54,705 bases of DNA, taken from the NCBI GenBank assembly GCA_018398765.1, contig JAHBMJ010000148.1, positions 1 through 54,705 of the forward strand. Reading direction: 5' to 3'. This document shows positions 13,559 through 47,507 of this stretch, one piece after another (the first letter of the stretch is position 1; each line of letters begins with the position of its first letter). Made by a program: the position numbers and the translations under genes. The notes below the pieces were generated by a model. That model made no database searches. It saw only the letters and a list, made by a program, of their open reading frames with translations, and was not told the origin of the DNA. Source of the DNA: Chromera velia (taxonomy: Eukaryota).

Positions 13559-13616
<58 letters not shown>

Positions 13617-19654: not shown

Positions 19655-19735
19655 CCATCGCGCCACATGCATGCATCGATCGATCGCGCGATATCGCGCG
19701 CCCCTCGCATGCATATATCGCGATATAGCTCGGGG
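19655..19735. promoter_or_regulatory. Putative bidirectional promoter core of stacked palindromes
   Basis: catgcatgcatcgatcgatcgcgcgatatcgcgcg...gcatgcatatatcgcgatatag, lying between the divergent ATGs at 19206 and 20403. Confidence 0.5.
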
Positions 19736-20402: not shown

Positions 20403-20925
20403 ATGGATCTGCGGGCGGAGCCTGGACAGGTTTTGGGGGATTTGGGGGACGAGGAGGAGATGCAGGAAGCCTTCGATCAGCAGTCTGACGGTCAGAGCGT
20501 GGACTCACAAGACGAGGAAGGGGACGATAGGGGAGAGAGAGAAAGAAGGTTGCAGAATGGCAGAGAACGGGTTCGGGTTGTGGCAGGCCAGGATGGGGAG
20601 CCTGGTGGTCCTGTGCGTCATCCATATCAGCCGTATATGAAGGAAGAGGAGTGTGAAAAACTGGTCGCACACTCACGAAAACTGAGTTTTCCCATGCCGT
20701 TTCCCCCCCCTGGTGCTGGGGGCTCTTCGTCTTCTGCCTCTGCTGCCTTCATAACTCCCACAAAGGAGCTGGAGGGTTTGATCGAGGGAATGAACAAACT
20801 CCTGGTGGGCGCCGTTTGCCGGGGCCCCCTGAAGGTGGTCTCTTCCTCGGACAGCGAATTTCGAGTAGCAAAGGTCAGTCAGACTTGGAGAGACAGACAG
20901 ACGGACAGATAGATACAGGTAGACC

Positions 20926-20980
<55 letters not shown>

Positions 20981-21021
20981 CGACCGACCGACCGACCGAC
21001 CGACCGACCGACCGACCGACC

Positions 21022-21052
<31 letters not shown>

Positions 21053-21973
21053 CGACAGACAGACACAGACAGACAGACCGACAGACAGACGCACCGACCG
21101 GCTGCGCGACCCACGAACCCACTGACGGACTTGTTCATACACCCCTCCACACACACTCACACACAGGGGGAGAGAGAGAACAAGAGAGGGAAACTTCTAT
21201 GCCTTGCAAGGGTCTCGCTTGGATTCCGATTCCCATCCATCATGCCCGCTCCCACTCAGTCTTCTTTCCTCTATGACGTTCACTCAACGAGAAACGTTTC
21301 TCGCCCGTCCAACTTCACTGGATGAAGAGACAGATGATCTATGGATGACCCTTGGTGGCACTGGACCCGACTTTCTTTGCATTTTATGGGATAACGAAGG
21401 TGAGTGCCTGCCTGCCTGCAGTCGTTTGTGACTGTGACTGAAGGACCGGAGTTTCTCCTGAATCGCCACATTTCAGTTTTGGGGCTCCCTGACAGGAATA
21501 GAGCGTGGCCGGGAGATATCGTGGTGGTCTCGGTGAGTCAATTTTCCTCCTCCTACTCTTGTTCTTCGCTTACTTGTCCTTGTGCTTCTGCCTCCTGTCT
21601 CTCCTCTGCTGTGATTCCACTTGAAAAAGCTTTAGGTTTATATTTCTCCTATGGCTTGCCAAGAGAGCCGAGAAAGGACAGCAATGAAAGAAGGAAGCGA
21701 ACAAGAAATGACAGTCGGACAGAAAGGGTGAACGCTAGAGCTTGAGAAACAGGGTGATCTCTATTCTTTCCTGTCCTTTTTTCGAATGTGCTTCCACTCA
21801 GATTTTGGCTGTGGAGGTGTCCCGCTCTTTCCTTGACAAGCGGAGGGCGGCGTCCGATGGACAAAGGGGTCAGTCTGTCTGTCTGTCTGTCTGCATGCGC
21901 CTCCCTCTTCGACTTTAATTTCCTCCCTCTTTCCCTTCCTCCTCTTCCTCTCTCCCCCCGGTCCCCCCCTTTG

Positions 21974-22005
<32 letters not shown>

Positions 22006-25000
22006 TTCTTTCTTTCTTTTCTTTCTTTCTTTCTTTTCTTTCTTTCTTTCTTTCTTTCTTTCTTACTCTATCTCTCTTCGGGCGTCTTTGTGTGTCGGTG
22101 ACGGTCTCATTCTCTCTTCGTCTCTCTGTTCGCTATGGCTTAGTGAGCCCATTTGACATACTGTCACTTACACCTCTTGTTCTCCTCTCCGTCTTCCTGC
22201 CGTCTTCTCTTTTCTTCGCCTTCCGTTGTTTCGTCTCCCTCACCGTGAGTGAGAGCGTTTCCTGATTTCCTTTTGCATCTGTTTGTTTGTTTGTTTATTC
22301 AGGTGCAAGTTCCTCGTGCTCTCCCGAATTCTCTTTTGACCTCCTCAACTGCTGCACCATATACGGATCGGTCCTGAGATCCGACCCGCTGGAGGAAGAT
22401 CTTCGGCCTCTGCAGTTCGTGTGCAGGTTCGTTTGTTCGTTCGTTCAATCGGTTGTTCGTTGTTCGGTTGTGTAGTTGTGTAGAGGGACAGTCGGGGTCC
22501 TTCGCTTTGTTTCTGGCAGTCGAGTTCTTTCGCATTTACGGACTCTGTCCCCTTTCGTTGTGCCTCACAAGATCCTCACTCGTATGGCTCTCCATGTCTG
22601 TGTCTCGGCTCCACTTCTGTACATTCTTCTCGGCCCCCATTTTCCTAGTGATTCAGACGGCACTCTCCCCGTCGTTTGTCTGCCCGTAAGATACAGAGAG
22701 AAACTTCTGTCTGCGAGTCAGCCATTCTTCGCACTTCGGCAGCTGGGGATCTGTTGGCGCGCAAAAGGGACATCTTCTGCAGTCGCAACGGAAGTCAAGA
22801 CTGTAAATGCAGACAAGGGAGCAACAATTTGTTTCGGCTGTGCTACAACGGACCTTGCTCCAGCATATGCTTAAGGTTTTTCTCATTTCCTCTTTGCTCT
22901 CTCTCCTGTGTGATGGCATGGGTTTCATTCTTTTTGTCTCTGCTGCAGAGTGAACAGAATGCAGGGCCAGGACTCCGATTGGCTCTTCATCCCGCTGCAA
23001 GTCGGTGGCTGTATTTATCTCGTTTTTTGCCTCCCCAAAGAAGGAAGAAGAAAGAAGCAATCTGGAGTCTCTCTCTGTCTTTGCTTTTCCCTCTTGCGGG
23101 TCCATGCTGCCCGTCCTCTTTCTGTCGTGTCTCTCCGAGCTGTAGGGAGACAGTTCTCTTCTCTTCACTTTTCTCCACGGACTTTTCCTCCTGCCTCTTT
23201 CTGCATTCAAGCTTGAGTGCCACAAAGGCCGAATGCTCTCGCTCCACCCCCTCACGCTCCTCACTCGGTTTGCCGCCTTCCAGACGGAGTTTCCTTCCAT
23301 TCGGGCGAAGGTCTCTGGGACCCCCCTTGCGAGACGGCCAGACAGGGGAGAGAGACATCAGAAGAGGACAGTCGAAAAGTGGAGAAGCCTGCTGGCTGCC
23401 TTCCCCACACACCATCTGTATGTGATCAGGTGAGTTAGTCTCCTCCCTCTCTTCTTTGTACTGGGTCTTCTTGTCCCCTCTTACCCATCTGATTTTTATC
23501 TCTCTGTCTGGCAAGGTAAAAGCTCCGGTCGGCCCATGTGTTCATCAATCAAACCTGCTTCGGTTCCCACCCAGAAGATCGCGTAAATATCTTCTGCAGT
23601 TACTGCTGTTGGTGCAATGTTCGGTCCGTTTGTGTTGGTATGGTTCATTCGTCTGTGCCTGCTTGCGTACCTGTCTGCTTGTGCGTTTCCTCCCAGGATC
23701 ATCAAATGGTCTCGGAGGCACGTCCGTCCGCTTGGTCGGATCATCGGTCGTTTTCGTCAGCCCCTGGCGTCGTTTTCTCTCGACAGGATCCTCTCGATCA
23801 AACACACGGTAGAGCTCGATGCCGTCACAGACGCACCAGCGCTTGTTGTGCAGAAACAGAAAGAGAGGGAGAAAGAGGGAGCGGGGAGAGGAAATGGAAC
23901 TAGAAGGGGAAGAGGTGGGGCTCTTTCAGGAGGGTGGGTGAGGGGACGGAGACGTCTTTCGGGAGACTCCGGAGATGCGGAGGAGGAGCACGACGCATTC
24001 GCTATGATCTCTGATGGCGACGAGAGTGCCCGGTCGGAATCGTCAGAAAGCGCTGAGGAGTCCTCTGAAGAAGAAATGGATTCAGATTCAGAAAATGGGG
24101 GAGGCAGATCGAGATCGATTTCGGTTTCTTCCTCTTTCTCCGTTGAGTCGTGCGATGGCGACGCGAATGCAAATGGGAAGGTGGAAGGAGACAAGAGAGG
24201 CAGCGGGGCTTGGGCCGCACACGCGAAAACTCTCCTTATCGAGGGGCTGAGAGAAGACACCGACTGCCGAAAGGACTTCCGTGAGCTCCGGACTTTCTCT
24301 ATCGATCCCCCAGGGTGCAAGATTCCTGAGGACGCGCTGTCTGTGGGTGGTTTGGACCCGAAAACTGGAATTCGGTCAGGGGGGAATGGACTGGGAGGGC
24401 AGGCGGGAGGACAGACTGACGGCTGCCGAGACGAAGAAGAAAAGAACAAAGTGTCGGGAAAATACTTTCTGTGTTTGTTTTGAGACATTCAGTCTGAAAA
24501 TGATATGAACGAAAAAGACTTTCCTGCACATGGTCATTGGAGAATCTTTCTTCGTCTGCTTATGCACAGCTTTTTTCATGCGTTGCTTTTGGTTTTGTTG
24601 GATCAACAGGGTCTCTCTCTCTCTGTGTGTGGGGGGGGGGGGGGGGGNGGGGGGGGTCTGAATCACTGGTCTGTCTGACATGGGTATGTACTCACTGCAT
24701 GCAGGTCCGTGTACGTGCACATTTCGGACGCCGTTCACATGGTGCCCCCTGGATCCTCTTCGGAGACGGCAGCAAGGAGACGGGGGAGCGATGTGTTCCT
24801 ACACGACCACCACGGGAGGGAGAAGAAACACGTGCAAATGCTGCCAGGGGCTCTGGTGCATCAGGCTGTTTTTGTGAAGGGTCAAGATCGGCTGGGAATA
24901 ACTTTCAGGTTCTTCGAATGTTCTTTTTTTCCTGCCCCTCCCTCCCTTTCTTCCTGCCTTCCCTTCTTTCTTTCTTTCTTTCTTTCTTTCGTTCGTTCGT

Positions 25001-28000
25001 TCGTTCGTTCGTTCGCTCGTTCGTTCGTTCGTTCGTTCTTTCTTTCTTTCTTTCTTTCTTTTCTTTCTTTCTTTCTTCCTTCCTTTCTTTCTTTCTTTCT
25101 TTCTTCCTTCCTTCCTTCCTTCCTTCGGGGAACGAAGGACGTTTGGAGGTCTGTTATGTATTTGGTGCAGTCAGGGGTCATCGTTGTGTCGATGTTTCTT
25201 TCTCCCCTCTCGCTACTGCAGTTGCGCTTTGTTTTGACGAACAGAACAGAGAGGCACCTAAATGTTCCCCTCTCACACTCTCACAGAGGTACCAAATAAG
25301 GCAGGCCCTTCTATTTCTGCGGCCATTCTGCACAGGATTGGCACTGGTCCTCTTGCTTCAAAAGGACGTCTCCCCCATCCTGTTTGTCTTTGGTCTTCTT
25401 TCCCCTGCCTGTGCTAGCACGGCTGTCTGCAAAGCTCTACGAGATGTCCATACAATTTCGTGCGCTCCGTTTCTTCCGCCCTTGCAGGTTCGATGTGCAG
25501 GTGGGGGACTCGAGTGGGAGACAGTTGGAGGTCCTTTCATGTCGCGTGTTCCGTTCGAAGCTGAGATCCCAGGCCACGCTCTCGTACAGTCAGGCTGCAG
25601 AGCTCCTGCAGACGGGGCGAGTCGGGGTGAAACAGAGAGGAGCAGAGAATGTGAATGTAGGGGCAGGGAGGACGGAGGTGGAAGAGGAACTGATGGAGAC
25701 CGTACAGCTGCAGAGAGAGGTCGGTTTGTTCGCCTATCGTTTGTCTCTTTGCTTTCGTGCAGAGGGGGGGGAGTGTGAAGAGAAAAGGAGGGGAGGGCAT
25801 CCAGTGATGTGAAGAGACGTTTGAGTGAAAGAAAGAAAAAAGGATTGATGGGTCTTGCTTCACATTCGTGCGTTCCAAGAAAGTGAATTAAACGAGCCAC
25901 ATAAGTCTGTCTGTCTCTCCATCTTTCTGTGTGTCTCCGCGTGTGTGTGTGCAGATTTGCGAAAGTCTCCGTTTCCTCTCTCTGCTCGCTGAGGGCCTCC
26001 GTGAGAGGCGAATGGAGAGAGAGGGGACGCTTGGGATCGTGTATCAGGAAGATGACTTCCCTCCAGAGGTAGGGTCGCCTTGTTTGCCTTTGCTTCTATT
26101 CTGGTGGTTGTCCACTTGCCCCTTCTTCTCGACAGTTTACTTTTTGTGCGCATGGAGTAAGGAGGGTACCTGATGCCGCCCTTGTCTTTTCATGACGGAA
26201 GCGCAATGTAGGCTGACATGGTGTGTGTGTGTGTGTGTGTGTGCGTGTGTGTGTGTGGATCTGCAGGAGAAGATTTCCAGGCAGTTGGTGTCCGAGCTAA
26301 TGATCTGTGTGAACTCGTGGGCAGGTGCACGTCTGATGGAGAAGTTGGGGGGGGACGGTCCGAGGTGGGTGGGTCCTTGTTGACTTTTCTTTTCTTTGCC
26401 TTTCTTCCTTTTTTCTTTGCTCTTTTTTTCCGGCTTTCAGTTTTTCTATCCTGGGAGACCGACTTGAGGATTTCTTCCCATACTTCTTCTGTGTCTTTTT
26501 CTTGTAACTAGGCTCTCACAGGTCCTCTCGTTGCTGGCAGACAAGAACTGCCTCTGAGATGAATGAAGTAACTGAGCAGACAGAGATCATACACAGTCTG
26601 TCACCAGGGCTGTGGTTGGATGCTCGATCATCTTCCGTCCCTTCACGAAGAAGACGCAGATGCTCGTTCTGACACACGTTCACCGTGTTCAAAAAGGAGA
26701 TAAGGAAAAACGCTCCACATCCAATAAATGGATGTACACTCACTTTGACTTCTCCGCTGATCCCTATGAATGAGCATGCATGCATGCAGACGGGTCCATC
26801 CCTGCCCCGACCTCCAGTGGACAGAGGCGGCGGCTTCTCTCTCTCTGGCTGCCGTCCCAATGTCTAACGTCAGTTGTTTGTTTGCTCCCTTGTTTTGCAA
26901 CGTTCCCTGTGAACTGAAAATACAGAAAGCAACAGTGAAAGTCAGACAGACGGAGAGAAATGAGGCATCCATCCAGCGACCCTTTTGCTTCCACTATCGA
27001 TCCCTGATTAATCCGGCCTGCAGGAGGAGCGTGCCCGCCTCGCCCCAAAGCTCGACTTCTCCTCCTCCGTCACTGCATGTCACGACACAATGATCAGAAT
27101 CGCAGAGCAGATCAAGGTGGCAGTCAAGGACGCTCAAGAAAACGCAGAAGACGATGAGGACGAAGAGGATCGACCCCACAAAGTAGATGAAATGGTCCGC
27201 TCGTTCGCTTTGCTTGCTTGTTTGCTTGCTCGGTTGTTTGTGGGAAGGAACAGCGGGCAGCAGGGAAGGGAGCGTTTGCTCCTCAAATCCTGCCTGCCTG
27301 TCCTCCTTTCTGTCGAGGTGAAAAAAGCGGCTCTGTTTATTTTTGTTTTGTTGAGGTCGTTTTGCTATTTGCCTCTGCATGTTTTCTTGGTGCGCTGCTT
27401 TTAGAAGGAACCAGACAAACAGCCAGCAGGAATGCAAACGTCGTGAAGTGCGTGCACCTGTCTCTCAATCCTCTCCTTGAGCTTTTTTTGTGTTCACTTC
27501 TTCCTTGCTCTTGTTGGGCCTGCAGATTCGAAGTTTTCTGTTTGCAATTCGAGGCCGCCTGTCTTCCCCTGAATACTTCTACATCCCCGTGGATGCCCCA
27601 AAGGAAAAAGAGACCGTGAAAGGACACTCCAAGCCTGACGACCTGTTCAAGGCCCTTAGCCAGAACGCAATCGCACACAGCAACATCCAGCAGCAGAAAC
27701 AGAAGGCGATGATGCAAACGAGAGAGTTAGTCGGTCAGGCAGGCAGGCAGCTCTCTGATGAATCCACGACAGAAGCGAAAAAGAGAGACGTCTGAGGAGG
27801 ACGTTTTTTTTGCTTTCATTGGTGTCGTTTTTCTTTTGGTTGATGTGGGAATGGCTGTGCGCAATCCACAAGTATGTCGACTCGCAAACTGAACGCTCGT
27901 TGTTATTTCGGCATCAAGACGAACACTGTGCACGTGTTTGCATGCAGGAACATCGAAAATCTGGAGAGGGACGCAGAGGAGTATCTGGCACTTGAGGAAA

Positions 28001-31000
28001 AGGAGGCCCGCTCTGTCTATCTGAAGAGTGTGCCTTTGGGAGAGGTCAGTCTGCTCAATCCTCTTTTTGAGCTGTCTGTCTTTCTGTCTGTTTGTCAGAA
28101 CTTTGCCTGCAACGACAAAGATGGCCCACATATTTTCTTGCCATCGGACATTCGTTTGGAGGGTGTGAAAGTGATCTGAGGTCACGGTGGCGTGCTGCAC
28201 TCAGGGTCGCAAGGCGGTTCTCTGAACGAGACCAGAGAGCCCGATTTGCATTGATCTTTCTTCTCCTTTTTTGCCCTCTATCTCTTTTGTTTTCTTCACT
28301 CGATCCAACAGAAGTTGCATTTTTTCCTGTCTATTTGACTCTCTACCTATCTGCATGCATGCACTCAATCAATGATGCAGGGCGAGGAAGACTCTCTGAG
28401 GGACATTTTGGGTTCTGTGGGGGACCTAGAGTCCTTCTGTCTCTTTCCTCCTGGAGAGTGAGTGAGTGAGTGAGTCAGGGAGGCAGGCAGCTACGGAGGG
28501 GTTCGGTCATGAGGGACTCAGCGGGAGGGAGGAAGGGAGGTTGTGTGTGTGTGTGTGTGTGGGTGGCTTGGGNNNNNNNNNNNGGGGGGGGGGGGGTGAG
28601 TAGGCGAGTGGCTGGGTGGTTAAGCATGCAGCCCGACCAGCCGGGAGACATGCAGTTTTCGGACTTCTCTTTTTCTCTCAAAACTTCTTACTGACTGACC
28701 CACTTACTCACTCTCCGTTTCCTTCTGTCTCTCTGTGTCTGTCCTCCGCTTCGGTCTCGTGATTCATCCAGCCTCTTCTCTCTAGCTAGGGATGATCACT
28801 CCATGGACAAATCCCTGATTCCTCTCTCTCTGAATCCTTCATCATTTCTTCCGTCCTGCCTCCTGCCTGTCTGCAGAGGTTGGAATGCCCGGTGCGGTAT
28901 TGCAACATTCAGAGAGCCTTCAGCAGCTGCACGTTGCCTTAGCGAAAGGAGAATGAACGGTCTGTCACTGTGCTTTCGTGTGTCGTCATGTTCTGCTTTT
29001 TTTCGGATTCCTCCGTCCATTTTCCTCCTTCCGTCATTCCTTTCTGATTCCTTTCCTCCTCTCTTCATTCTGTCTTAATTTATGAATCCATTCATTCATT
29101 CATTCTTTTCTCCATTCCATTCCTCTTTCGCTTCTGTTCTAAGCCTTCTCCCGCGAAGGTTCTTTTGGATTCTTTTTTTCGTTCTTTCTCCTCCTGTGAT
29201 TCTCCGGTACAGGTCCCTTCAGCGCCTGTCTCGGGAACATTCAAATTCTTGAGTGGAGGGATAAGACAAGGGAAAGCCTCGAGCAGAGGCGCGAGGTCAG
29301 TAGCTCCTCTTGGCTCGGTCTTGATGTTTGGTTTCCTTCCTCCGGCTCGGTCTTGCTTCTCTTTTCAGAGTGGAGGAAAGCTTTGGTGATTGGCTCGAGG
29401 TGAATCAAAAATGCTCGCTGTCCTTTCTCGGCTCATGTTTCTGCTGTGCTCTCCTGCGGTTGATGGCTGTAAGACATTTTCCTTCGACCTACAGCTCGGA
29501 GAGGCATTGAGAGGAACGAGAGAGAGGGATCATCCGTTCAATTACTTTTTTCTTTCGGTATTGTTGATAATTCTCTTCTTGCCTGTGCTTTCATGAATGA
29601 TTCCCTTTGCTCCTTTCCCCTCCTACCATGCCTTCCTTCACTCCAAGTATGCTATGCTGCCTGCCTGCAGGTACGGGACATGGCGGCGCGCATTAAGTGC
29701 AGACGGCAGGGCATCCCCGAACCCCCTCCCCTTCCACCTCCCCCTCCACCACAGGCACAGCAGAGGGCTTTCCCGACTGACTACAGACTCGCGCCCCCTC
29801 CTCCAGAGCCCTCAGCAAATACAAGAAGCCCTGCAACTCTGTTTCCCCAAATTCCGGGGGTGATGCCGGGGCCCGTTGCCGTCTCCGGTCCCGTCTCGTC
29901 CTTCCCGCTCTTTGCAACAGACCCCTACTTCCAGGTCACATCTCCCATCAGGAGGTCAGTCGGTTCGTTTCTATGTTGCATGCTCACCACTCTCACTGAT
30001 TCGCTTAGCACGCTCGCATTCACAGACTGACTCATCCTCTCAAGAAGCAACGCATTCATTGGAGTCTCAAGTGCGAATGTGCGTTGATTTGCTTTCCGTC
30101 CCTGCGCCAAAAGACTGCCAAATGACTCTTGAAGCTTTGTGACACTTTGCGTCTCCTCTCCTCTTCTCTTCTCTTCTCTCCGTGCAGATACGTGGACCTA
30201 ATTGGCTTGAGACTGCTGCTTTTACCGTCCGCTTTCCTCCACTCACTGAGGGACTCCGCAGAGAAAGAGAATGAAGTCGAAACAGCGCAGGGAAACAAAA
30301 AGAAGAAAAAGAAGAAGAGGGGCGACGGCGAAGGCGGGGCTGGAGGATCCGAACCACCGCCGAGCGACGAGGGTCACATGTTGCTTCCCCTGGAGTTTCC
30401 CTCTTCCTCCAAGGGACACGCGCTCCGGAATGCGTACAGAGACTGGGTGAGGGAGCTGCCCTCAACGGTTCTCAGGTTCAATCTCTTGAACAAAAGGGTC
30501 GGTCGGTCAGTTCAGTCCTCTCTTGCTCCAATGATCTTGTGAGAAGAGAGGAGAATAGTCGAACGAACAGGCATGAAAGAAAGAAGGGCGGTTGAATGAC
30601 GGGGACAACGTTGGGGGCATCCGGAAGGTGGACTGACTGACGTGTTGATGTGTGTGTGTACTTCTGTGCAGTAGTTTTGCTTTTTGTTCTGCCTGCCGTG
30701 TTTTTCACACCGCTCTAAAGGAAGAAAGACGCCTTAGAAAAAGAAGAAGAATGACGCCGCAATTCCTCAAGAGAACCGGTGATCGCATCTTTGCTCGAGC
30801 CCTCCTGTACTGCAGCAAGGGGGAGGTAGTGGAAACCCCAGACTCTCACCATCTTTCTCAGAATGTGTTTGTATCGAGTAGTGAGTGCCTTGCCTGCTTT
30901 TTCTCATTGAGTGCATTCAGGTGCGGGAGGTCCAGAAGGAGTTTGCCCTTCTCTCCCTGTGCCGTTGGATTGCACACGCAACAATCCGGGTGAGGGCCCT

Positions 31001-32003: not shown

Positions 32004-32055
<52 letters not shown>

Positions 32056-32057
32056 GT

Positions 32058-32095
<38 letters not shown>

Positions 32096-35610: not shown

Positions 35611-35641
<31 letters not shown>

Positions 35642-37129: not shown

Positions 37130-37210
<81 letters not shown>

Positions 37211-40200
37211 GTGTGTGTGTGTGGAAGGAAATGTACGTGTGTGGAGTCTGCAGGTCCGAAAGCGGCACCCTGACATCGCGCAGTGGGAGGCGATGATGCG
37301 TCCGGAGTCACCTCAGGACAGGAAGAATTTTTTCTTTCTCAACCAGGTCTGTCCTGCATGTTGGTCGGGCCTGTCAGCTAAGGGAGACGACACAGAGAGA
37401 CAAAAGAACAGAAAAGAAAAGAAAAGAGGAGAAAAGAGAAGAAGTGTGATGGGGACTGCGGGTCAAAACGACATTTTGGTGCTTGGCAGCGAAATAAGTC
37501 CTTTTTGTGCGTCCGTTCAATCTGTTTGGGGGGCATGCGTGAGGAGGGCCGCCGGTATCGGAGAGTCGGGCCGAAGGCACGGGCTTAGACGTTGACCAAA
37601 ACTCTCTCGTTTCCTCATTTCTCCCTGCAGAACGAGATCAGAGCGCACGAAGACAGGATTACGGAGGTCGAGCAGGAGCTCATTGGCGAGACCAAGTTCG
37701 TCGTCGCCACCTGCGACTCTGCACATCTCCGCTCGTCTATGGCGGTACGTCTGCTTGTTGAGAGCAGGGAGTGACGTATGTTTAGTGCAAACATGAGGAG
37801 GCACATCGATTCTAGACCCGATTGAAACAACGTACAAAGTCCGAGATTCACTCAAAAGCACATAGACACACAGACAGATACAAAAAGAGAGAAAACAAGA
37901 GAGAAAGGGCGGGCGAGGGGCAGTGAAAACCTATTGGTGAAAAACTAACTGTGTAGAGTCTCTTCCCCCGTCCCGGTGGAAAACGCTCACATGCAAACCT
38001 GCCAGTCTCCTGAAGAGGCCTGCGGCTCGAGAAGTAGAAGAGTTTGAAAAGGAGAAGCAATTGATTTAGATTGGCTGACTGACAGATCCCTTTCCCCTTT
38101 TCCCTTCTCTAAGATTGAACGCGAACATTCCCTTACCTAACGCTAGAAGTATCCGCAACTGGATACGAATGGCGATCATGGCGCGTCATGGTCATAGTCA
38201 CCCCCCCTGAATCTCTCAGACCGAGTCCTTTGAAACTGTCATCGTCGACGAGGCCGCACAGGCAGCGGAGGTCGATGTGGTCCTGTGCTGTCTCAAGGCA
38301 ACAGAGCGCATTGTCTTGGTCAGTCTTATCTTTCTTTCTCTTGATCGTTGGCCTTCTTCCTCTTTCCAGTTTGTCTTTATTTCTCATCAATGTGTATCAA
38401 CGGAAGGGCTGGCGAGAACATGGAAGATTGGAGGGCAAAAATGGTGCTGTGTTTCGCTTCAACTTCACCCTCTCAAATCAGAAACGAGGAGAGGCTATGT
38501 TGACCCAATGTCCTTTGTGCCCTCTTCTTCGTTTTCCCCTCAGTCAACCGCTTTCGTTTCGTCACACTTCATCACTCTATGTCGGTAAGCAAGACCTGAC
38601 TGCAGGCACTTTCTTTCATCATGCATGTGGAAAGAATCTGACTGACTCCGTCCTTGCCTGCAGGTGGGAGATCACCAGCAGCTGGGTCCTGTGGTGACGG
38701 AGAGGAATCTTCTCCCAGGAGTCTACAGGGCGCTCTCCCAGTCTCTGTTCGAGAGGATTTTCGAGGACGGAGGGCAGGGGCAGCCGCCGAAGAAAGGGGA
38801 CAACAAACGGCACCTGCTTCATGCACCGGAAGAGGAGAGGGAAAAGAGAGTAGATGTCCACAAGAGCCTGGTTCCGCACATCACTCTGAGGAAGCAGTAC
38901 AGAATGCACCCTGCAATTCGGGAATTTCCTTCCAGAGAATTCTACGCAAAGCAACTGAAGGACTCGGAGGAAATTGAGACCATGAAGGTCGGTCAGGCTT
39001 GTAGAGAACTTCTTTCGAGACGACTGACTTATTGTGTTCCCTCTCTTCGCTTTTTGCACTTCTTTTTCTCTTCATGCCTCCGATCTATTCGCTTTCTTAC
39101 CGTTAATACATGTTTTCTTCGTGTCCTTTCTTCCGGCTCGCATTCCACCCACCTTTCTCTTTTTCCGATAAGCTGATTTTCGCTCTGCAATGTCTTTGCG
39201 GCAGCCCCCGGAAAGCTTCATCCTCCTCTAGGAATGATCGACATTTTGTTGTACCCTCCCTGTCCGCCTGCTTGCCTGCCTGCTCGTGTGCGTGTGCGTG
39301 TCTGTCTGTCTGCTCGCTGAACATTCGAATGATCTGTGTGTGTGCAGCTCCTGGGGGACGACTCGGAAGTCTTCCCCTGGCCTGCCGGTCCCGACTGCCC
39401 AATTTTGTTCTGTGACGTGCGCTGTGCCCACAAAACCTACCAGGTCGGTCTGTCTGACGGGTACTGTCCGCAGAACACTTTTTCTAACGGCGTTGTGTTT
39501 TGGGAAAGAGGGATCGAGTTTTTTGGCCCACAAAACAATTACACAAAGACAAATAGGAGCACACAGTGTGTTGCAATTTCCAGGAACAGCAGTATGCAAC
39601 ACTCCCAAACAGCAGAGATTGGGAATTAGTTTTCTTTGTGCAGAAGGAACGAAGAACAAATTTCTTTGTTGCCGCGATTTGCACTTTGGACCATTTGTTT
39701 GTTCTCAATCCCAACAGCCGCAGAGGTTGGATGTTCGCGATCAGGACTGTTTGTCTTCTCTCTCTCTCTCTCTCTCTCTCTCTGGTTCAGTCTTGCGTTT
39801 ACACCTCGTTTGGATGTTGATGGGTTGATTGGATCGCAGTGGGTGACTCTGTTTCTTTGGCCTCAGTTTATTCTGAATTCCCTTCGTTGGTTTTTGTGTT
39901 GACTTAATTCCCTCCCTTAATTCTGTTCCGTTCCATTCGATCTCGCATGCAGAGTGCGCGGGAGGGGGACACGGAGGGACAGGCGGGGGCGTCAACTGGT
40001 CTCTCCACGAAATGCGTTGCCTTCTCTCTGGTCAATCAAGGTTGGTCAGTTGATTGACTGTCAGGGCGGGGAGCGAGCAGAGCGGCAGGACGAACTCTGA
40101 GCAGGTACCCTCATGTAAAGGAATTTCATCGAGTGGAGCGCTCTGTGCCTTTATTTTCGTTTTGTCTGTGCTTGACGAGTGGTTAGGGGCTTCGCATAGG

Positions 40201-43200
40201 TTGGGGTATGACGCTTTTTGTCCAAAGATATGTCTGTCTGTCTATCTCGCTGTTTCGAAGGAGGTAGGATGCAATGCAACGAGACAGCACTCTTACTTTT
40301 GACATTTTCTCTCAGAATCTCCTTTGCATGTGAGGCTTCCCCTCGATGCTGACACTCTGCTTCAGTCGATGAGCCCTGATTCACTTTGATTTCTTTCATG
40401 TGGCTGTCTGGTTTTTTTTTTTTTACCCAATAACTCCCGTTGAACAATATGCTTGGGACCCTCCACTCGACTGCGTGCAGGGGAAATCCACATGGTTCTC
40501 AAGTCAGTAGTCTCTTTCTTGATCACGTTTTCTTTCTGCTTCTCTTCCTTCCTTCCCTGAGTCGATCGATCGATCGATCCGTTCTCTCTGTCCTGCCTTG
40601 ACCCTGTGCCTGCATGCCGTCTTTCTTGTGGTGTATGTGCCCTTCCCCCTCTCTATGCTCGTCCCTTGGAACGTCAACAAACCCTCCCCGTTTGATCTTC
40701 GACTCTGCCTCTCACATTCCTGCGACTCCTTTAGCTCGAGTTCCTTCCCCTCTCTTTCTTCTCTCCCTGCAGGTGCTACAAGTACCTCCTCGCCAAGGGG
40801 ATACTTCCCAGGCAAATGGCAATTTTGACGCCCTACAAGGCACAAGCGGTTCGGATCCGTTTTCTTCTGGAGCAACACGCAGAGCAGGCACGTCACGTCA
40901 GAATGGGGCAGGCAGGGGATCGTGCACGCAGCAGCCAATCCTGTCAGATTGATGCGGCCGATTTTGTTCAGCTGACACTTCGAGCTACGAACCAGAGGGG
41001 TGTGGTGCTGATTGGATAAAACCTCAAAACGCCCCGCCCCTGCATCCGCATGCCTTTGCCTCTTCTCCTTCAGATGTTCCATTCTTCCTGTATATTTTCT
41101 ATTTGTGTATGCTTGCAGAACGGCCTCGCTTTGAGTCTGTATTGTATTGTATTATTGTATTTTATTATTGTGTATGTTTGTTTACTCTTCCTGTGTTTTT
41201 GTGTGGGCATGCTTGCAGAACGGTCTCGGTTTGAGTCTGGGAGAGTCCGGAGAGGAGATTCTTCCCGTCGTGGGGACTGTTCACGCTTTGCAGGTACCTC
41301 GGTGTGAACGGGAGGGGACGGGGGAGAGGTTTTAGCGTTTTTTTGTGTTGGTGTCCTTCTGCTTGTCTCGCTTCTTGGTCTGTGAGTACGACTGCTCGAC
41401 TGAGTCACTTTGCTGTTTCTTCACCACAGGTGCTCGGTCGGAAAGCAAGATAGATCGTTTGGTACTTTCATGTCGGTGCATGTTTGGTTTGATGAGTTTG
41501 TTGCAGGGCATGGAAAGGGAGTACGTGTTGCTGTCGTTTGTACGGTCATTCTCGGAAGGAGAGCTTGCGTCGGGGTGCTACCATGAACTCGGGCTGCCGG
41601 CAGAGCTGCTGGCGTCGGGGGGGTCCGGGAGGGACGGGGTGGGGCTGCCTCGGCAGAAGGGGGGTGAGAGGGTGTTCAGGGAAGTTGTTCGGAGAATGAT
41701 GAAGACGTCTCTCGGGTTCCTGTCCAACCATAGGTCGGGGGGAGGGGGGTGCTTGTCTGTTGTTTTCTGTGTAAGCAGGAGCATGTATCTACCTTCTCAC
41801 GCACGCACGGGAGGCTCGGTATGTCTTCATCCGAGGGATTCGGAAGGAGGCATACTGATGGCTTGATCGAGCACATGTATGTTTGCGTCTGTGTGTGTGT
41901 CTGTATTTGGATGTGTGTGCAGGATTTTAAATGTGTGTCTGACGAGAGCCCGACGAGGCCTGATGTTGTTCGGGAACGCGACCGTTCTCTCTGCAGACTC
42001 TTCTCTGGAACGCTTGGTCTGTCGGTCTGTCGGTCGAAAGGACAAGAGTGCTTCCTGCAGGGTTGGAAAGGTCTTGTGTTTGGGAGGACTATTCTTCTGT
42101 CGAATATTCGGACGTGGGTGTCGCTGGGTCTGTGAGAAAAAAATCCCATTTGGGTGAATTTTGGGGAGTTTGAAATTTCCGATCCATCTGTACTCTTTCT
42201 GTCTCCAACTCCCTTTTTTTGTTTATCGGCGAGCCGGCGACAGACCGTCAGCACACGCTCACATGCCAAAATACGAGATGAGAGAGCCTTTTTTCTGCCT
42301 GATTCATTCACAAAATGAGTGCGAGGTGCTTGAACGACTGAATGAATGGGTGTGGGTGAGTGCAGGTTCAACACTTCAGGAAGAAAAAGGCGTTGATGCT
42401 GTCAAGTGCCCTGGAGAGAGAGTTGATCAGACAGGACAACGCGAGCGGACTCGGAAAGGCTACAGTAAAGCTGCAAAGGGAGAGGGAGAGACTCGAAGCA
42501 GAGAGGGCGGGCAGGGCAGTGGCAGGCAGCGGGGGGGGGTTCCCGATGGACCGGGACAGAGACCAGCTTGCGAGTTTGTTCTCTGCAGGGGCGTCTCTAT
42601 CTGTGTTTGCGTCTCCGGACGAAGTGAATGGGAATGTGAACGGGCAGGGGGGGAAGGAAGCCGGGGGCATAGAGGACATGTCGGATTTGGAGCGTGCGTG
42701 GGGGGATATTTGGGATGAGGCCGGGGGAGAGGGAGGGAACGACCCCGCATTCAGAGGAAGTCAAGTAAGTCGATGCACCCGGCCGCCGATACGCTGAAGA
42801 CGCGATTGAAAGACTTCTTCTGTCCTTTTTCCTTGCATTGAAACAGCTTTGCGAAGGGCATGGATGGGGGATGGTCTGCGGTACTCGCATCATCTTCTCC
42901 TCTGGTCTGACTCCCTTTTTCGTCGTCGCCGCTCTACACAAACCAAAGCGTCCCTTGCCATACACCGTCAGCGTCAATCACCAACATCATGTGCGTCTGT
43001 TTGCTCCCTCTCTCTCTCTGTGTGTGTGTGGGTGCACAGGGGGACCAGAGGACGGGAAGAGACGGGACCGGACTGGGGCCTCCATCCATCGCAGATGTGT
43101 CACAATCGCAATCGCAACTCATGTCGGGGCGTCAGAGCGAGGTCTGTCCGCCCTGTGTCTCTGTCTCTGATTTTCTCTTTTTGGTTCGTCCTGCTTTACC

Positions 43201-43724
43201 GACGAGAAAAATCAGAATCAGTAGTCTCTATTTGCATTTCTGCAAAATGGCAACACGATGGCATTTCTGTTGATTGCAGCGAGGGAGCTCGTTCCGCTCG
43301 CAAAAATCTCATTTTGAAATCTGCGCGTGTTCCTCTTTTTGTGTTTCGGTTCTTGCTGTTTTCTTTCTTTTAGGTGGACTCAGGCAGTGAGTTTGACTTT
43401 GAGTCTTCTGATGAGGAGGAGGACCCGCACGGAGCTGGGGGCAAGGGGAGAGGAAACGGGGGGTTCTCTGGGGGAGTCGTTGGGGGGTTGTCCTCGAATT
43501 TCGATAATTTCAGGTGGATGGGTGGGTGGGTGGGTGGGGATCGCACGTTTTCCTTCCTTTTCTCTTTGGTGGGGATGCACGAGACAGCGTCGGAGGGAAA
43601 CGAAGGGAGAGGGAGGCAAAAACTGTTTATGTCTATCACTATCACTTTCAAGTGCTCGGACTGCATTGGCTCACATTTGGTACTGTTCACTTCTGCTGAT
43701 GGAGGGATCCGTCTTTTCAAGTCA

Positions 43725-43763
<39 letters not shown>

Positions 43764-43800
43764 TCCCTCTCCCCCCCCCTCTCTCTCTGTCTGTCTGCCC

Positions 43801-43840
<40 letters not shown>

Positions 43841-46800
43841 ATCCGTCAATGTATCTTCCTCAAGCTGTATCTATTTGTCCGTATCTCTGCTTGTGCGTTT
43901 GTCCCACCGCCTTTCTCCCTGATTCACTCTCTCCTACCCTCTTCTGCTCCTCCCTCCCTCCCTCCCTCCCTCCCTCCCTCCCTCCCTCAGGGACCCGTTG
44001 GCAAACACCGCACAGGGGGAGGGGGAGTTCACATTCCAGAGAAAGAAGGGGAGGGGAAGAGGGAGGGGAGGAGGGGGGGGAAGAACAGGGGTTGTGGCTT
44101 CAGGGCTGCCTCCCCAGTCTCCGCCCTTCGCCCCGGTATCCCGCACGTCGGCGTCTGGAGAGGGAAGACGGAAGGCCCCTCAAGCCCCCACGCCCTCCCC
44201 ACCTGCACCAAGCAGAGTCAATCCAGGAGTTCCAAATCGCATACAAGAGGAGCGAGCAGGACTGCGTCGAAACGAGGAGGACTACGATGACTGGGCTCCT
44301 CCCGTACCTCCTTCTCGGAAGGATATGAGAAGCGAATTCAGTCCTTCTCCCCCTCCCCCCCAAAATCAACAGAACCACGGTGCTTACAGAGAAAGAAACG
44401 GAGGGGGGGGGAGGGGGCGAGGTGGGTTGCCTTCCCCTCCGGGATTTGAGCAAGCCCCCGGCATGGACTTTGTATCCTCCTCCCCTCTGGAGACGCCCAC
44501 TAGGGGCCCCTCCGGACCCCCTCGAGGCCCCACCGCCTCCACCTTCCCCTCCTCGAGTTCTCGCACAGACAGAGAAAGGGGGGGTATGTATCCACATGGA
44601 GGGAGAGACATACATGAGTACGGGCAGTACTCTGGCAGTCACAGTCCGTATGATCATGGTGGTAGAAGGGGGAGGGGAGACGGGGGGGAGTTCAGGGGGG
44701 GCATGCAGGGACCGGGTTCTCCCTTCTCAGGAGGAGGCGACGAGGAGCATCTCTGGAGAGGGACCGCACCGTCCCCACAGCCGCCGCCGCCTCCTCCCCC
44801 CCCTCCCCCACCGCCTGGACCCCCTCCCCGGCTACAGCAGCCGCCGCAGCAACAACAAGCGAATGGAGAGCCTCCACAGTCCTGCCACCTGTGCCCTCAG
44901 CCTCTGGGGCTCTCACGAGAGTCCCAGAAAGCCCAACTTTGCCTCAGTTGTCTGACGGAAATGAGAGACGAGTGGGAGTCAGTCAAGAGACAGGCAGGCA
45001 GGAAGGAAGGTGACTCAGAGAGAAGAGGTGTGCACCAATCAATTTACATGCGTACACATGCCTTCCGGTTTTCTTGAATGTTCTTTTTCTTTCGTCACAG
45101 TTCCCTCCAGGAGTACCAGATTCTTGCCTACTGTGTGAGACGCAGGCCGGCTCTTGAACCCACCGGCATGTGCTGCCGGGGGAATTGAGCGACAGACAGG
45201 GGAAACCTTAGGGAAGGGAAAAGGGACAGAAGAAGACCTGTGTGTCTTTTGGTCTGCACATGTGCTGTGACTGTAGCTGCACTTTGTCTCCCGTGTCAGT
45301 CCTCGCTTTCAAACGCAATGATATGAATGTCTACCGGCTTTCTGGCTGTTCTTTGCCGAACAGCGACAGAGTGACACTTGCTTCCTTTGTCTTCTGAATG
45401 CTTCCTGTTGCTTGCATGGCGCTTTTCACAGCTGGATGATAGAGCAACTGGCATCGGACGAGTGCTTGCCCTTCCTCGGAAATCCTCTTCTTCTCTTTTG
45501 CTCTAAGCTCTATCAGGGGGTCAGTCAGTCAGTCAGGGCTAGGGGGGGCTGTGTACTTGGGTGATTTCCCTCCCTCGTGAAACGATCGGCTGCACGATTC
45601 AGCCCTTTTGGCTGGCAGGAATGCCAACGTGGAAGTCTCCAGAGGACTTGAGGGACTTCTCAAGGACAGATGAAACATCATGTTTTTTTCTGTGAGATAC
45701 CTGAATTTTGCGTGGTGCTCCTTTCCTCTCTCCTCTCCTCTCCTCTCCTCTCCTCTCCTTTTACTCGTAGGCTTTTTCTCTACGTTTTATCAGACAAATA
45801 AATGAATGAAGCAATGCGTAAATGGACAAGAATGCATGATGCTGGCATGTATGGACAAGTGAAAACACTTGAACGTCAAATAACAACCGCAGCGGCTCTC
45901 CTTCTACTCCGACGCTCACGCGGGCGGAGACCCCAAAGGGAGGACGCGTTGGGCTGTGGCGATGGCTCGGTATCTCATCTTTGCGCAGGTCGGTTGGTGT
46001 CAGTCGAAATTCTTTTGTCTTTTCCTTTTCTCGCAAGCTGCGGTTGCTCGCAGATTGGCTGACCCCTCTGGCGCTCGCCTTTCTCCCTGCATGGAGGCTT
46101 GTTATCCCTCAGAGTGCTGCGGAAACAAACCCAGAGGGTCGCTGCCCAATTTCTTTTTTCGGAAGTTTTCTGAATGGCCCATTTCCCGTGGGCGCTTGTG
46201 GTCCTTCCACGACGGGGGCGCTTCTTCAATGTTTCCCTTTGTGTGCAATTGAGTACATCTGTCCGTCTGTCTGTCCTGTCTGCGTTGATACAGGAAGTGG
46301 ATTTGTTCGCAGAAGATGCAGAAGGAAATACCTGTGGTCAGTCTGCAGGCCTCTCTGCACGAAGCCATGAGTCGTCTGTGAGTCTGAATGACAGATCTTT
46401 CTTCTTCTGTATTCATGTTCCTTGTCTCGGCTCTTGTGTAAATGAAAAGAAGAACAAAATAGGAGAAAGGCGCACTGAGTGGCCCTGTCGTCGCTCTTGG
46501 AGAAATTCTTCGAATCCATCGCCTAGATAAAGAGAGGATAAAGAACTAAGATAGTCTGTGTCCTGCCATGCCTGCCGGCCTTGTTGGAAAGGGGCCTCGC
46601 GTCTCCGTCAGAGGTTCATCTCGTTTCGTTCTCTCCTTCTCGCTTTGTACAAGTGTCCGGGACAGCCCTACAGAGAAGACCGTCTACAGAGAGATGTTTG
46701 CCGGGTCCAAATGTCTGTCCCTTTTCGCCCAGGTTTCTGGTTCTTGTAAAAAAGTTCCGACTCTTCTTTTGACTCTTCGTTGTCATTCTAAGCTGCTTCT

Positions 46801-47507
46801 TTTTGCTTTTCTGCCCCTTACTCCTTTCCTGCTTGCATTTCTCGCTTGCTCGCTTACTTGCTTTGTTGTTTTATTGGTCGCTCTCTTGATGGATGCAGTG
46901 ACGCTCTGCGTGAGGGATCATTCACTCCTCGCAGCCCTTGCGCTGATCAAATGCGGTCAGTGGGCGTGACCTGTGTTCAATTCGTCGCAGCCAAGTTTTG
47001 TCTGGCTATCCCGAAATACCGAAACAGATGAGAATGAGCCGATACAGTTTTCTTTCTGAATGATGGAATGAATGCGGTGAGAGAGCCTCCTTGGAAGTGG
47101 GGGAGAAGGGAGTCAGCGGGCAGTCTGTGAATTGATGGGTGAGTCGGGGATACAGAGAGTGCTTTGATGGATGCAAAGAACAGTGAAGTAGCAGCCCGCC
47201 TTTGCATGGATGATTGCCTTTCCCCGTTTGCTCGCACACACGTCAGTCTTTTTTTATTTGGTGTCCGTTGACTTTGAGTGAGCCTGTTGTCAGAGCCTTG
47301 TCTGGCTCTGGCTGCTTGCTGGCCTGGCTGTTTCACGCCTTCTTCCTGCTTGATTCGCCCTCAAACGATATATTGTCCTTCCTTCTGTCCTCTCTTCCTG
47401 TCGGTTGTCCTTCCTTCCTTCCTATCTCCTGCATGGCTCGATCAATCCTCTCTGCAGACGTCCCATTCGACCACGAGAACATGAAAGCCCTTGGAGTTGC
47501 CAGCTGA
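20403..47507 (+). CDS. Giant RNB (RNase II/Dis3-like) plus UPF1-like SF1B RNA helicase fusion with CCCH zinc finger (HELZ2-like), ~3000 aa, >50 exons
   Basis: Exon chaining yields, in order: OB motifs [13 protein letters not shown] and FIPLQTEFPSI...[16 protein letters not shown] motifs [65 protein letters not shown] and [15 protein letters not shown]; helicase motifs [75 protein letters not shown] and [12 protein letters not shown]. Junctions near 21.2, 28.4-28.9 and 40.9 kb are unresolved. The 3' end is uncertain: alternative stops at 45077 or 45188 apply if the last exons are not joined. Confidence 0.85.
20890..21100. repeat. (GACA)n/(GACC)n compound tetranucleotide microsatellite in intron 1
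   Basis: acagacagacag...accgaccgaccg, read directly. Confidence 0.95.
21477..23760 (+). other. Dis3-type cold-shock/OB domains (CSD1-CSD2) of the fusion protein
   Basis: Exons 21477-21532 ([18 protein letters not shown], cf. Dis3-family NRAxxGDxVxV), 21802-21868, 22303-22426, 22949-23000, 23284-23429 and the start of 23697 ([13 protein letters not shown], cf. IxxWxxxSxYPxG). Confidence 0.75.
24262..30230 (+). other. RNB (RNase II catalytic-fold) domain exons
   Basis: Canonical motif order from RKDFR...IDPPGC (24268-24340) to TSPIRR|YVDLI (29938-29954/30188-). Exons 24705-24908, 25488-25719, 25955-26068, 26267-26364, 26790-26868 and 27024-27194 are all phase-consistent. Confidence 0.9.
33901..34317 (+). 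other. CCCH zinc finger (C-x8-C-x8-C-x3-H) split by an intron
   Basis: Exons 33834-33920 and 34239-34386 join to give [33 protein letters not shown], cf. the TIS11/TTP pattern KTELC...C...CxFAHGxxEL. Confidence 0.8.
35675..42016 (+). other. UPF1-like superfamily 1B helicase core (AAA_11/AAA_12-type)
   Basis: Walker A GPPGTG|KS across 35870/36122, DEAAQ at 38247, GDHQQL at 38667, QYRMHP, FPWP, micro-exon 40481-40502, and motif VI exon 41923-42016. Confidence 0.92.
45893..47507 (+). other. Ankyrin-like repeat exons at the probable C-terminus
   Basis: Phase-consistent exons 45893-45988, 46294-46336, 46899-46955 and 47458-47507 give [53 protein letters not shown], cf. ankyrin DxxGxTPLHLAxxxGxxxxVxxLLxxGADVN. 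Confidence 0.5.

What the first reader, a model, noticed from the sequence alone, without database searches (positions are those of the whole stretch)
20403..47507. HELZ2-like RNB exonuclease-fold / UPF1-helicase / zinc-finger mega-protein in a non-animal-looking genome
Seen in sequence: one largely phase-consistent exon chain encodes, in order, CSD1-CSD2, RNB, an S1-like segment, the helicase stalk ([22 protein letters not shown]), a 1B region with a CCCH finger, a full SF1B helicase, an RGG/Pro-rich tail, CxxC-CxxC and ankyrin-like repeats. Established: Dis3/Dis3L2/RNase II and UPF1-family helicases are normally separate proteins. The RNB-helicase fusion I know of is animal HELZ2, an interferon-inducible protein with two helicase units flanking the RNB. 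Inference: this is either a deep HELZ2 relative lacking the first helicase or an independent fusion. Either way it could be a self-contained RNA recognition, unwinding and decay machine, possibly for RNA surveillance or defence.
Basis: partly seen in the sequence, partly recalled or inferred. Interest (0 to 1): 0.9.

Follow-up and report, generated by a model that had tools for sequence, protein, structure and literature searches.

The report
Protist HELZ2-like helicase with disarmed nuclease
One spliced gene joins an RNA-chewing enzyme body to an RNA-unwinding motor, a layout described from the animal antiviral protein HELZ2; it groups with similar proteins of dinoflagellate algae, and its cutting site has lost a key residue, so it likely grips and remodels RNA rather than destroying it.

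Summary
A 55-exon chain (20403-47506, +) reads as one 2971-aa frame: CSD1-CSD2-RNB-S1, stalk, 1B barrel with a CCCH finger, one UPF1-like helicase, low-complexity tail. One spliced 5469-nt contig carries both RNB and helicase exons, so these are not two genes. The tail beyond about 41.6 kb is not transcript-checked; the ankyrin-like repeats did not beat shuffles. The architecture is not unique: the same fusion occurs in dinoflagellates, often named UPF1, with a helicase fragment in a gregarine. The window groups with them in helicase (100/99) and RNB (98) trees. It is not a HELZ2 member, but the RNB-to-helicase junction aligns with HELZ2's (HHalign 95%), not UPF1's (0.4%); shared ancestry is favoured but unproven (tree 84/57). 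Three relatives keep the catalytic signature; 14 others examined lost it, while helicase motifs persist. Best reading: an ATP-driven RNA-binding and remodelling protein with a probably dead nuclease, in surveillance or defence. No description found in nine literature searches. New variant of a known kind.

The parts
20403..47506 (+). Whole gene model, 55 exons, 2971 aa (exon list in full report)
   Evidence: spliced contigs for exons 9-33
20403..20777 (+). Acidic N-terminal leader (aa 1-125); no zinc fingers, no PIN, no first helicase
   Evidence: sequence; no Pfam hit; relatives P0005 and P0090 also start with a short acidic leader
20778..23817 (+). Cold-shock domains CSD1-CSD2 (aa 126-364, exons 1-7)
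   Evidence: blastp E 1e-19 to P0005; family profile 86 bits; fold of the relative; exon borders not transcript-checked
24262..30221 (+). RNB (RNase II) domain, aa 513-1135, with a ~250-aa insertion
   Evidence: Pfam RNB; alignment with E. coli RNase II; RNB tree
24301..24339 (+). RNB catalytic motif, altered: D527 kept, second position I533, third position E535 (codon GAG at 24328), D536 kept
   Evidence: genomic reading only, outside the stretch laid
28006..29256 (+). Possible RRM-like domain inserted in the RNB (aa 936-1016, exons 15-18), absent from relatives
   Evidence: weak: best window of 117 for a home-made RRM profile, 4.8 bits vs shuffled maximum 4.3 of 585; only PDB hit of exon 17 is PARP10 2dhx, E 1.1 (that this entry is an RRM is recalled)
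30477..31962 (+). S1-like domain (aa 1221-1390)
   Evidence: colinear with relatives; in the folded relative it completes the RNase II fold
31990..35212 (+). Linker, helicase stalk and 1B beta-barrel (aa 1400-1630)
   Evidence: relative's barrel matches UPF1 1B, Z 11.1, rmsd 2.4, 83 aligned; spliced joints
33916..34302 (+). CCCH zinc finger inserted in 1B (aa 1554-1576)
   Evidence: pattern in sequence; same position in relatives, Pfam zf-CCCH E 2e-4 in P0093; the window exon alone had no Pfam or PDB hit
35792..42374 (+). SF1B UPF1-like helicase core with intact motifs I (35855-36129), Ia, II (38241-38261), III, IV, V, VI (41927-41959)
42375..44876 (+). Acidic, Gly/Arg- and Pro-rich low-complexity tail (4 RGG after aa 2300)
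   Evidence: sequence; in frame but not transcript-checked
44883..44951 (+). CxxC-x15-CxxC putative zinc knuckle
   Evidence: sequence; a similar Cys/His spacing is visible by eye in P0005 and P0090 but the tail profile did not detect it
45101..47506 (+). Last six exons, helical and ankyrin-like; needs one GC donor at 45145
   Evidence: in frame; ankyrin score not above shuffles; least certain part

Best explanation
This is one spliced gene that fuses an RNase II-type body to a single UPF1-like helicase, it groups with a fusion family of dinoflagellates, and it likely works as an ATP-driven RNA-gripping and remodelling protein whose nuclease site is probably dead. Shown: one spliced molecule, domain order, intact helicase motifs, third catalytic Asp replaced by Glu, family membership. 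Inferred mechanism: the cold-shock, S1, CCCH and possible RRM parts select an RNA; the helicase moves 5' to 3' using ATP, opening structure and stripping proteins; the RNB channel (Arg equivalent to RNase II R500 kept) holds a single-stranded 3' end without cutting, as fungal Ssd1 binds RNA without cutting; the low-complexity tail would recruit granules or other decay enzymes. The ancestral form, still seen in three dinoflagellate proteins with the catalytic signature, would unwind and degrade like HELZ2. The family probably shares the RNB-helicase junction with the C-terminal half of animal HELZ2 by descent (about 60%). The likely job is surveillance or silencing of structured, mobile-element or viral RNA (about 50%; no direct evidence).
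For: One molecule. Motifs. Family: 6 of 28 long hits carry RNB plus one helicase; named sources Prorocentrum, Cladocopium, Symbiodinium, Breviolum, Biecheleria, Effrenium, Abedinium, Selenidium. Window plus family is one side of a branch at 100/99 (helicase) and 98 (RNB). Nuclease signature is first, third and fourth Asp (PMC8097288, passages); the third is essential and the second dispensable in HELZ2 (PMC10516660, passages). Signature kept in 3 of 3 subfamily A proteins that have an RNB, in 0 of 14 subfamily B proteins printed, while 30 of 30 fusion proteins keep Walker B and motif III and 28 of 30 match Walker A: selection keeps the motor, not the blade. In human HELZ2, helicase 2 matters most against LINE-1 and the RNase-dead mutant changes retrotransposition less than 2-fold (PMC9839780, passages). 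HELZ2 link: junction HHalign 95.1%, E 3e-8, 331 columns, vs UPF1 0.4% and SEN1 0.5%; both halves also score best with HELZ2. Several paralogues per species and variable add-ons (Tudor/chromo, TPR, CCCH) fit a defence-type gene.
Against: Asp-to-Glu is conservative and I found no test of it (0 papers), so residual activity is possible; Dss1 tolerates Glu at the second position (PMC8097288). The Glu codon is read from the genome only; window and contigs differ at 10 of about 3700 exonic bases. Family plus HELZ2 helicase 2 gets only 84/57 and is not recovered under LG+G4. The junction halves are weak alone (58-68% without the window). No Dis3/Dis3L2, MOV10, HELZ, ZNFX1, DNA2 rows were available for trees, and no Dis3-type S1 control. 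The family profile scores UPF1 helicases (274-294 bits) a little above HELZ2 helicase 2 (230-280) and DIS3/DIS3L2 (99, 95) at or above HELZ2 RNB regions (46-97). Nothing here shows RNA targets, induction or a defence role.
Confidence: 0.55

Rival explanations
1. The window protein is still an active unwind-and-degrade exonuclease like HELZ2: Glu substitutes for the third Asp and the helicase opens duplexes ahead of the nuclease.
For: First and fourth Asp, the second Glu of the helix motif and the R500-equivalent Arg are kept, unlike subfamily B where the motif is erased. It sits next to subfamily A, which keeps the signature (90/71). Ile at the second position also occurs in P0005, P0090 (Ile/Val at neighbouring positions) and a fish HELZ2.
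Against: The third Asp coordinates magnesium and its loss abolishes activity in tested members (PMC10516660, PMC8097288, passages; tested changes were to Asn). The adjacent position is Pro where relatives have a hydrophobic residue. The RNB carries a 250-aa insertion and has a long branch (1.59).
Confidence: 0.2
2. The fusion arose independently in an early myzozoan from a Dis3/Dis3L2-type nuclease and a UPF1-like helicase, and resembles HELZ2 by convergence. (This rival concerns origin and can hold with either mechanism.)
For: Weak tree support for sisterhood; relative's fold is as near Dis3L2, Rrp44 and RNase R as can be told (Z 29-32); no OB_HELZ2 hit in relatives; no RNB-plus-helicase protein from other named eukaryote groups among 99 hits. 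RNB and helicase also fused separately in giant viruses according to unchecked earlier notes.
Against: Colinear junction match to HELZ2 and not to UPF1, SEN1, an IGHMBP2-like protein or bacterial S1; family plus UPF1 is marginally rejected (AU p 0.049) while family plus HELZ2 helicase 2 is not (p 0.49) (groups named after seeing the tree).
Confidence: 0.35
3. The RNB and helicase halves are two neighbouring genes, or the chain is a chance reading.
For: The runs are only guessed to be RNA, are contigs, and come from one study.
Against: Spliced, in-frame contigs cross the junction; relatives have the same halves in one protein with colinear similarity across it.
Confidence: 0.02

Closest known systems
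Animal HELZ2 (PRIC285/PDIP1), C-terminal half (PMC10516660, PMC9839780)
   Same: Order CSD1-CSD2-RNB-S1-stalk-1B-SF1B helicase; alignable junction of similar length (368-422 aa in most relatives, 547 in the window, 424-510 in HELZ2); helicase outside the UPF1/SEN1/IGHMBP2 side (90/88).
   Different: No N-terminal zinc-finger array, no first helicase, CCCH inserted in 1B, long C-terminal tail, third catalytic Asp lost, not nested in HELZ2 (AU p 1.4e-4). One mollusc HELZ2-like protein (P0110) also shows one helicase by Pfam, so single-helicase forms are not confined to protists.
Unnamed dinoflagellate RNB-helicase proteins (e.g. CAK0863287.1, CAE7605028.1, CAL1129451.1), labelled UPF1, 'regulator of nonsense transcripts 1-like' or unnamed
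   Same: Same architecture including the CCCH in 1B; same clade in both trees; best match colinear over aa 130-2306 at 28-39% identity.
   Different: Window has the RNB insertion with a possible RRM, Glu at the third catalytic position, and an ankyrin-like instead of TPR end.
Dis3L2 / Dis3 (Rrp44) / RNase R, and the pseudonuclease Ssd1 (PMC8097288)
   Same: Complete CSD-CSD-RNB-S1 fold in the relative (Foldseek E 1e-27 to Dis3L2); repeated loss of the catalytic signature as in the Ssd1 lineage.
   Different: These are stand-alone or PIN-fused, never fused to an SF1B helicase (recalled).
UPF1
   Same: Helicase motifs and 1B barrel fold (Z 11); best PDB sequence match of the family profile.
   Different: No CH zinc domain; window plus UPF1 rejected (AU p 8e-6); stalk/1B sequence does not align.

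Membership tests
HELZ2 | CSD-CSD-RNB-S1 directly followed by a UPF1-like SF1B helicase in one chain | tested here: met
HELZ2 | Second helicase unit N-terminal to the RNB | tested here: not met
   Model starts 125 aa before CSD1; tblastn of 10 HELZ2/family/UPF1 proteins gave 71 hits inside the gene and 3 chance-level hits (E 0.38-0.51) outside. The 5' end is not transcript-checked.
HELZ2 | N-terminal C2H2/CCCH zinc-finger array | tested here: not met
   No such pattern in aa 1-500; the only CCCH lies in 1B
HELZ2 | Active RNB signature (first, third, fourth Asp) | tested here: not met
   D-I-E-D; 12 of 14 HELZ2 rows keep it
HELZ2 | Nested in the HELZ2 clade | tested here: not met
   AU p 1.4e-4; HELZ2 helicase 2 100/99 without the window
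HELZ2 | Shared ancestry as sister group | tested here: inconclusive
   84/57, AU p 0.49, junction 95%; outgroups incomplete
HELZ2 | OB_HELZ2 (PF25049) domain | tested here: inconclusive
   No hit in short window exons or in whole relatives P0090, P0091, P0226 at E<=0.1
HELZ2 | Induction by interferon or infection; nuclease and ATPase activity | not testable with these tools
   contigs give no levels; no assay
Myzozoan RNB-helicase family (defined here) | RNB, S1, CCCH-bearing 1B and one helicase, grouping in both domain trees | tested here: met
UPF1 | N-terminal CH domain (PF09416) and place in the UPF1 clade | tested here: not met
Dis3/Rrp44 | N-terminal PIN domain | tested here: not met
   No room and no hit before CSD1
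Dis3L2 | RNB descends from Dis3L2 | not tested
   no Dis3/Dis3L2 sequence could be brought into the tree
RNase II-family pseudonucleases (Ssd1-like) | Loss of one of the three magnesium-binding Asp | tested here: met
   third Asp is Glu; criterion from PMC8097288; inactivity itself untested

The most novel reading that the evidence does not exclude
The core of the animal interferon-induced RNA destroyer HELZ2 (RNB fused to a UPF1-like helicase) is far older than animals, or crossed into alveolates early, and survives in dinoflagellates and their apicomplexan-side relatives as an expanded RNA-defence family in which the nuclease was disarmed more than once while the motor was kept.
Probability: 0.35. 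Interest if true: 0.82.

Novelty: new variant of a known kind. Interest (0 to 1): 0.62.

Why it matters
HELZ2 is described as a metazoan factor (PMC10516660). A related one-chain RNB-helicase in alveolates would move the origin of this RNA-defence design deep into eukaryote history and give coral symbionts and bloom algae a candidate RNA-surveillance family that databases now hide under the name UPF1. The family also offers a natural series (signature intact, one residue changed, erased) to test whether the nuclease or the helicase carries the function, a question left open for HELZ2 and LINE-1.

Tried and rejected
No whole genome is held, so copy number and the presence of separate UPF1, Dis3 and Dis3L2 genes in this organism are unknown. 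No listed run is on record as RNA. Exon 7 found nothing among proteins of 395-2000 aa or in PDB. No near-identical protein among 81 hits of exon 38, so the organism could not be named from this gene. The shorter-protein search with the relative's RNB gave 3 RNase R-type proteins only. Scans for more members: genome contigs gave none and one UPF1; metagenome contigs gave 80 loci, 1 family-like helicase fragment (L048), 73 classed as UPF1-type, 0 of 80 with an RNB. First helicase tree missed 7 rows and mis-cut 3 HELZ2 helicase-1 rows; it is the only tree holding Selenidium P0017. Junction alignment dropped 4 of 14 family and 2 of 13 HELZ2 rows whose motif pattern failed. Home-made RRM (14 rows) and ankyrin (20 rows, one mis-cut) profiles are small. 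Tail homology to subfamily A was not detected. Single exon 23 against the family profile was weak, 3%; plasmid tblastn of exon 17 was uninformative. The window protein itself could not be folded; the fold is that of a relative. The atlas gave RNB+AAA clusters auto-named HELZ2-like without taxa; a second atlas query did not complete. One search was a script error. Literature searches; none lists a protist RNB-helicase family (most subscription papers are not covered; supplements, including HELZ2 alignments in PMC10516660, were not read and may bear on taxon range). No complex prediction was run.
Full report
Setting. The window is an intron-rich eukaryotic sequence (GC about 0.5, microsatellite-rich introns). 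No genome is held.

Gene model. Reading I built 55 exons on the + strand: 20403-20873, 21422-21532, 21802-21868, 22303-22426, 22949-23000, 23284-23429, 23697-24374, 24705-24908, 25488-25719, 25955-26068, 26267-26364, 26790-26868, 27024-27194, 27526-27725, 27948-28044, 28381-28457, 28877-28959, 29213-29295, 29671-29954, 30188-30497, 30921-31102, 31251-31383, 31789-31994, 32332-32419, 32743-32924, 33333-33437, 33834-33920, 34239-34386, 34645-34704, 35195-35302, 35675-35870, 36122-36244, 36506-36702, 36901-36957, 37254-37346, 37631-37744, 38220-38318, 38664-38987, 39348-39443, 39953-40040, 40481-40502, 40773-40896, 41219-41293, 41507-41733, 41923-42016, 42366-42764, 43040-43141, 43374-43513, 43991-44977, 45101-45145, 45432-45519, 45893-45988, 46294-46336, 46899-46955, 47458-47504 plus the stop to 47506/7. 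It has 53 GT and 1 GC donors, 54 YAG acceptors and 2971 codons without a stop.

One molecule. Four runs of one study, guessed to be RNA, hold about a fifth of the words of 29600-39500. Laid on 25130-37060, run X1 has one 5469-nt contig with pieces from 25485 (RNB) to 36701 (helicase, past motif Ia), and all four runs show the same GT-AG joints. The contig's spacing equals the model's at 8 of 8 anchors, and the 14 displayed joints common to all runs equal model introns (one further joint is a repeat artefact, 8 were not displayed). I used these spacings while choosing exons, so this is a consistent fit and not a blind prediction. By record length X3 record 10 and X4 record 14 also span the intron between S1 and the stalk. 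Window and contigs differ at 10 of about 3700 exonic bases, 4 silent and 6 changing a residue.

Domains. Exon-wise Pfam finds RNB, AAA_11 and AAA_12 in order. A profile of 12 relatives covers the model colinearly from aa 126 to 2325 (748 bits). The window protein could not be folded, so I folded residues 60-1027 of the nearest relative P0005 (pLDDT 75, pTM 0.77): model residues 12-724 superpose on whole RNase II-family enzymes (Dis3L2 Foldseek E 1e-27; Z about 31, rmsd 4-6, 450-610 aligned) and 796-931 on the UPF1 1B barrel (Z 11.1, rmsd 2.4, 83 aligned), with the CCCH finger looped out of the barrel. All helicase motifs are intact in the window. A 250-aa insertion splits the RNB and may hold an RRM (weak). 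The ankyrin-like end is the best window in the protein for an ankyrin profile but does not beat shuffles.

The catalytic site. Aligned to E. coli RNase II D201, D207, D209, D210, the window has D527, I533, E535, D536. PMC8097288 (passages) defines the active signature as the first, third and fourth Asp; PMC10516660 (passages, section 22) shows the second can change in active human HELZ2 and the third is essential. The window fails the signature by a conservative change, and has Pro beside it. No paper on Asp-to-Glu at this site turned up. The codon is outside the laid stretch, so it rests on the genome alone. I put inactivity or near inactivity at about 70%.

A family. Exon 38 against 1.84 billion representatives gave 81 hits, none near-identical. 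Of 28 long hits scanned, 6 carry RNB plus one helicase. With and cluster look-ups the named sources are Prorocentrum cordatum (P0005 also carries a Polarella label in one source), Symbiodinium spp., Cladocopium, Breviolum, Biecheleria, Effrenium, and helicase-side fragments from Abedinium folium, Polarella glacialis and the gregarine Selenidium pygospionis; fusion to an RNB is not shown for the Selenidium and Polarella fragments. Cladocopium goreaui has three distinct records, Breviolum two. Many are named UPF1 or 'regulator of nonsense transcripts 1-like'. Subfamily A (P0005, P0090, P0091) keeps the signature; 14 of 14 subfamily B rows printed have lost the motif (several are near-copies). 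Helicase motifs persist. In one search the only RNB-plus-helicase proteins with a named source were dinoflagellate or animal, but only the top 7984 word-sharing candidates were scored, so the range is not known.

Relation to HELZ2. Helicase tree, 46 rows, 407 columns, LG+C20 with bootstraps: window plus family 100/99; window plus subfamily A 90/71; HELZ2 helicase 2 100/99; family plus HELZ2 helicase 2 plus P0038 84/57; UPF1/SEN1/IGHMBP2 side 90/88. LG+G4 leaves the sisterhood unresolved. AU tests under LG+G4, groups named after seeing the tree: family+HELZ2 p 0.49, family+UPF1 p 0.049, window inside HELZ2 p 1.4e-4, window with UPF1 p 8e-6. The RNB tree puts window plus family at 98 but has no Dis3-type rows; agreement of both trees means the fusion predates the split of the window's lineage from dinoflagellates. 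The stretch from the end of RNB to the helicase core aligns family to HELZ2 over 331 columns (95.1%, E 3e-8), not to UPF1 or SEN1. Split in two and without the window, S1 gives 68% (bacterial S1 1%) and linker-stalk-1B 58% (UPF1 0.4-6%). Against this, HELZ2's own stalk-1B is closer to UPF1's (96%) than to the family's, whole-core profile scores slightly favour UPF1, and the Dis3-type S1 control is missing. I give shared descent about 60%.

Mechanism. For HELZ2, the helicases let the RNB degrade RNA protected by a duplex when the other strand has an overhang (PMC10516660, passages); helicase 2 is the stronger ATPase and matters most against LINE-1, whereas the RNase-dead mutant has under 2-fold effect (PMC10516660, PMC9839780, passages). 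The family keeps just the helicase-2-like unit and has lost the nuclease signature in most members seen. I infer that subfamily A unwinds and degrades, while the window protein binds RNA through CSD/S1/CCCH/(RRM) and the RNB channel, and uses ATP to unwind and strip it, handing it to granules or other nucleases through its tail. A defence or surveillance role is inferred from HELZ2, paralogue expansion and variable add-on domains; it is not shown.

Novelty. Nine searches listed no description of a protist RNB-SF1B family; I saw listings and abstract starts for all, and passages of PMC10516660 (plus section 22), PMC8097288 and PMC9839780. PMC10516660 calls HELZ2 a factor of many metazoan groups. 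Earlier scan notes hold no match; one search lists unchecked notes on giant-virus RNB-Ski2 fusions (a different helicase superfamily) and a sea-urchin HELZ2. Verdict: real gene, new variant of a known kind, member of an apparently undescribed myzozoan family, works probably like a HELZ2 without its blade. Interest 0.62; 0.82 if the deep HELZ2 defence link holds (probability 0.35).

Noticed in passing
window 48798-52877 (-): Several broken frames that look like a non-LTR retrotransposon reverse transcriptase and endonuclease (motifs recalled, e.g. a YADD-type motif in 50091-50780). Pfam gave no supporting hit. It lies about 1.3 kb past the gene's stop.
   Followed up: partly
window about 11177-19100 (-): Probable divergent, spliced gene or genes rich in Gln/Pro/Ser, with ordered-looking exons at 12463-12969 and 13858-14568; no meaningful Pfam hit.
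   Followed up: partly
window 19480-19760: Intergenic patch dense in short palindromes (TGCATGCA, ATCGAT, CGCG) between the divergent genes; TGCATGCA is recalled as an apicomplexan promoter motif.
   Followed up: no
window 6950-8893 (+): 648-codon open frame, low complexity, no Pfam hit.
   Followed up: partly
window 20874-47457: About 33 of 54 donors start GTC (counted by eye) and introns often open with 4-base microsatellites; this may help place the organism.
   Followed up: no
window 41095-41140 and 41195-41240: The acceptor and first bases of exon 43 are duplicated 100 nt upstream; the upstream copy runs into a stop, a possible decoy acceptor.
   Followed up: no
P0038 (Logan, organism unknown): Helicase with a RING finger inserted after motif Ia; groups with HELZ2 helicase 2 (99/98) and its upstream part matches the HELZ2 junction (98.8%). 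If non-animal it is a second, closer HELZ2 relative.
   Followed up: partly
P0151, P0181, P0111: Two oyster HELZ2-like proteins lack the catalytic motif and a cichlid one has Ile at the second position: nuclease loss also occurs among animal HELZ2 paralogues.
   Followed up: no
P0055: RNA-dependent RNA polymerase fused to a UPF1-like helicase.
   Followed up: no
L002 and genome G001: A genome titled as a Verrucomicrobiaceae MAG holds a UPF1 gene (62% identity) and many intron-interrupted RRM and ankyrin genes, i.e. apparent eukaryotic contamination.
   Followed up: no
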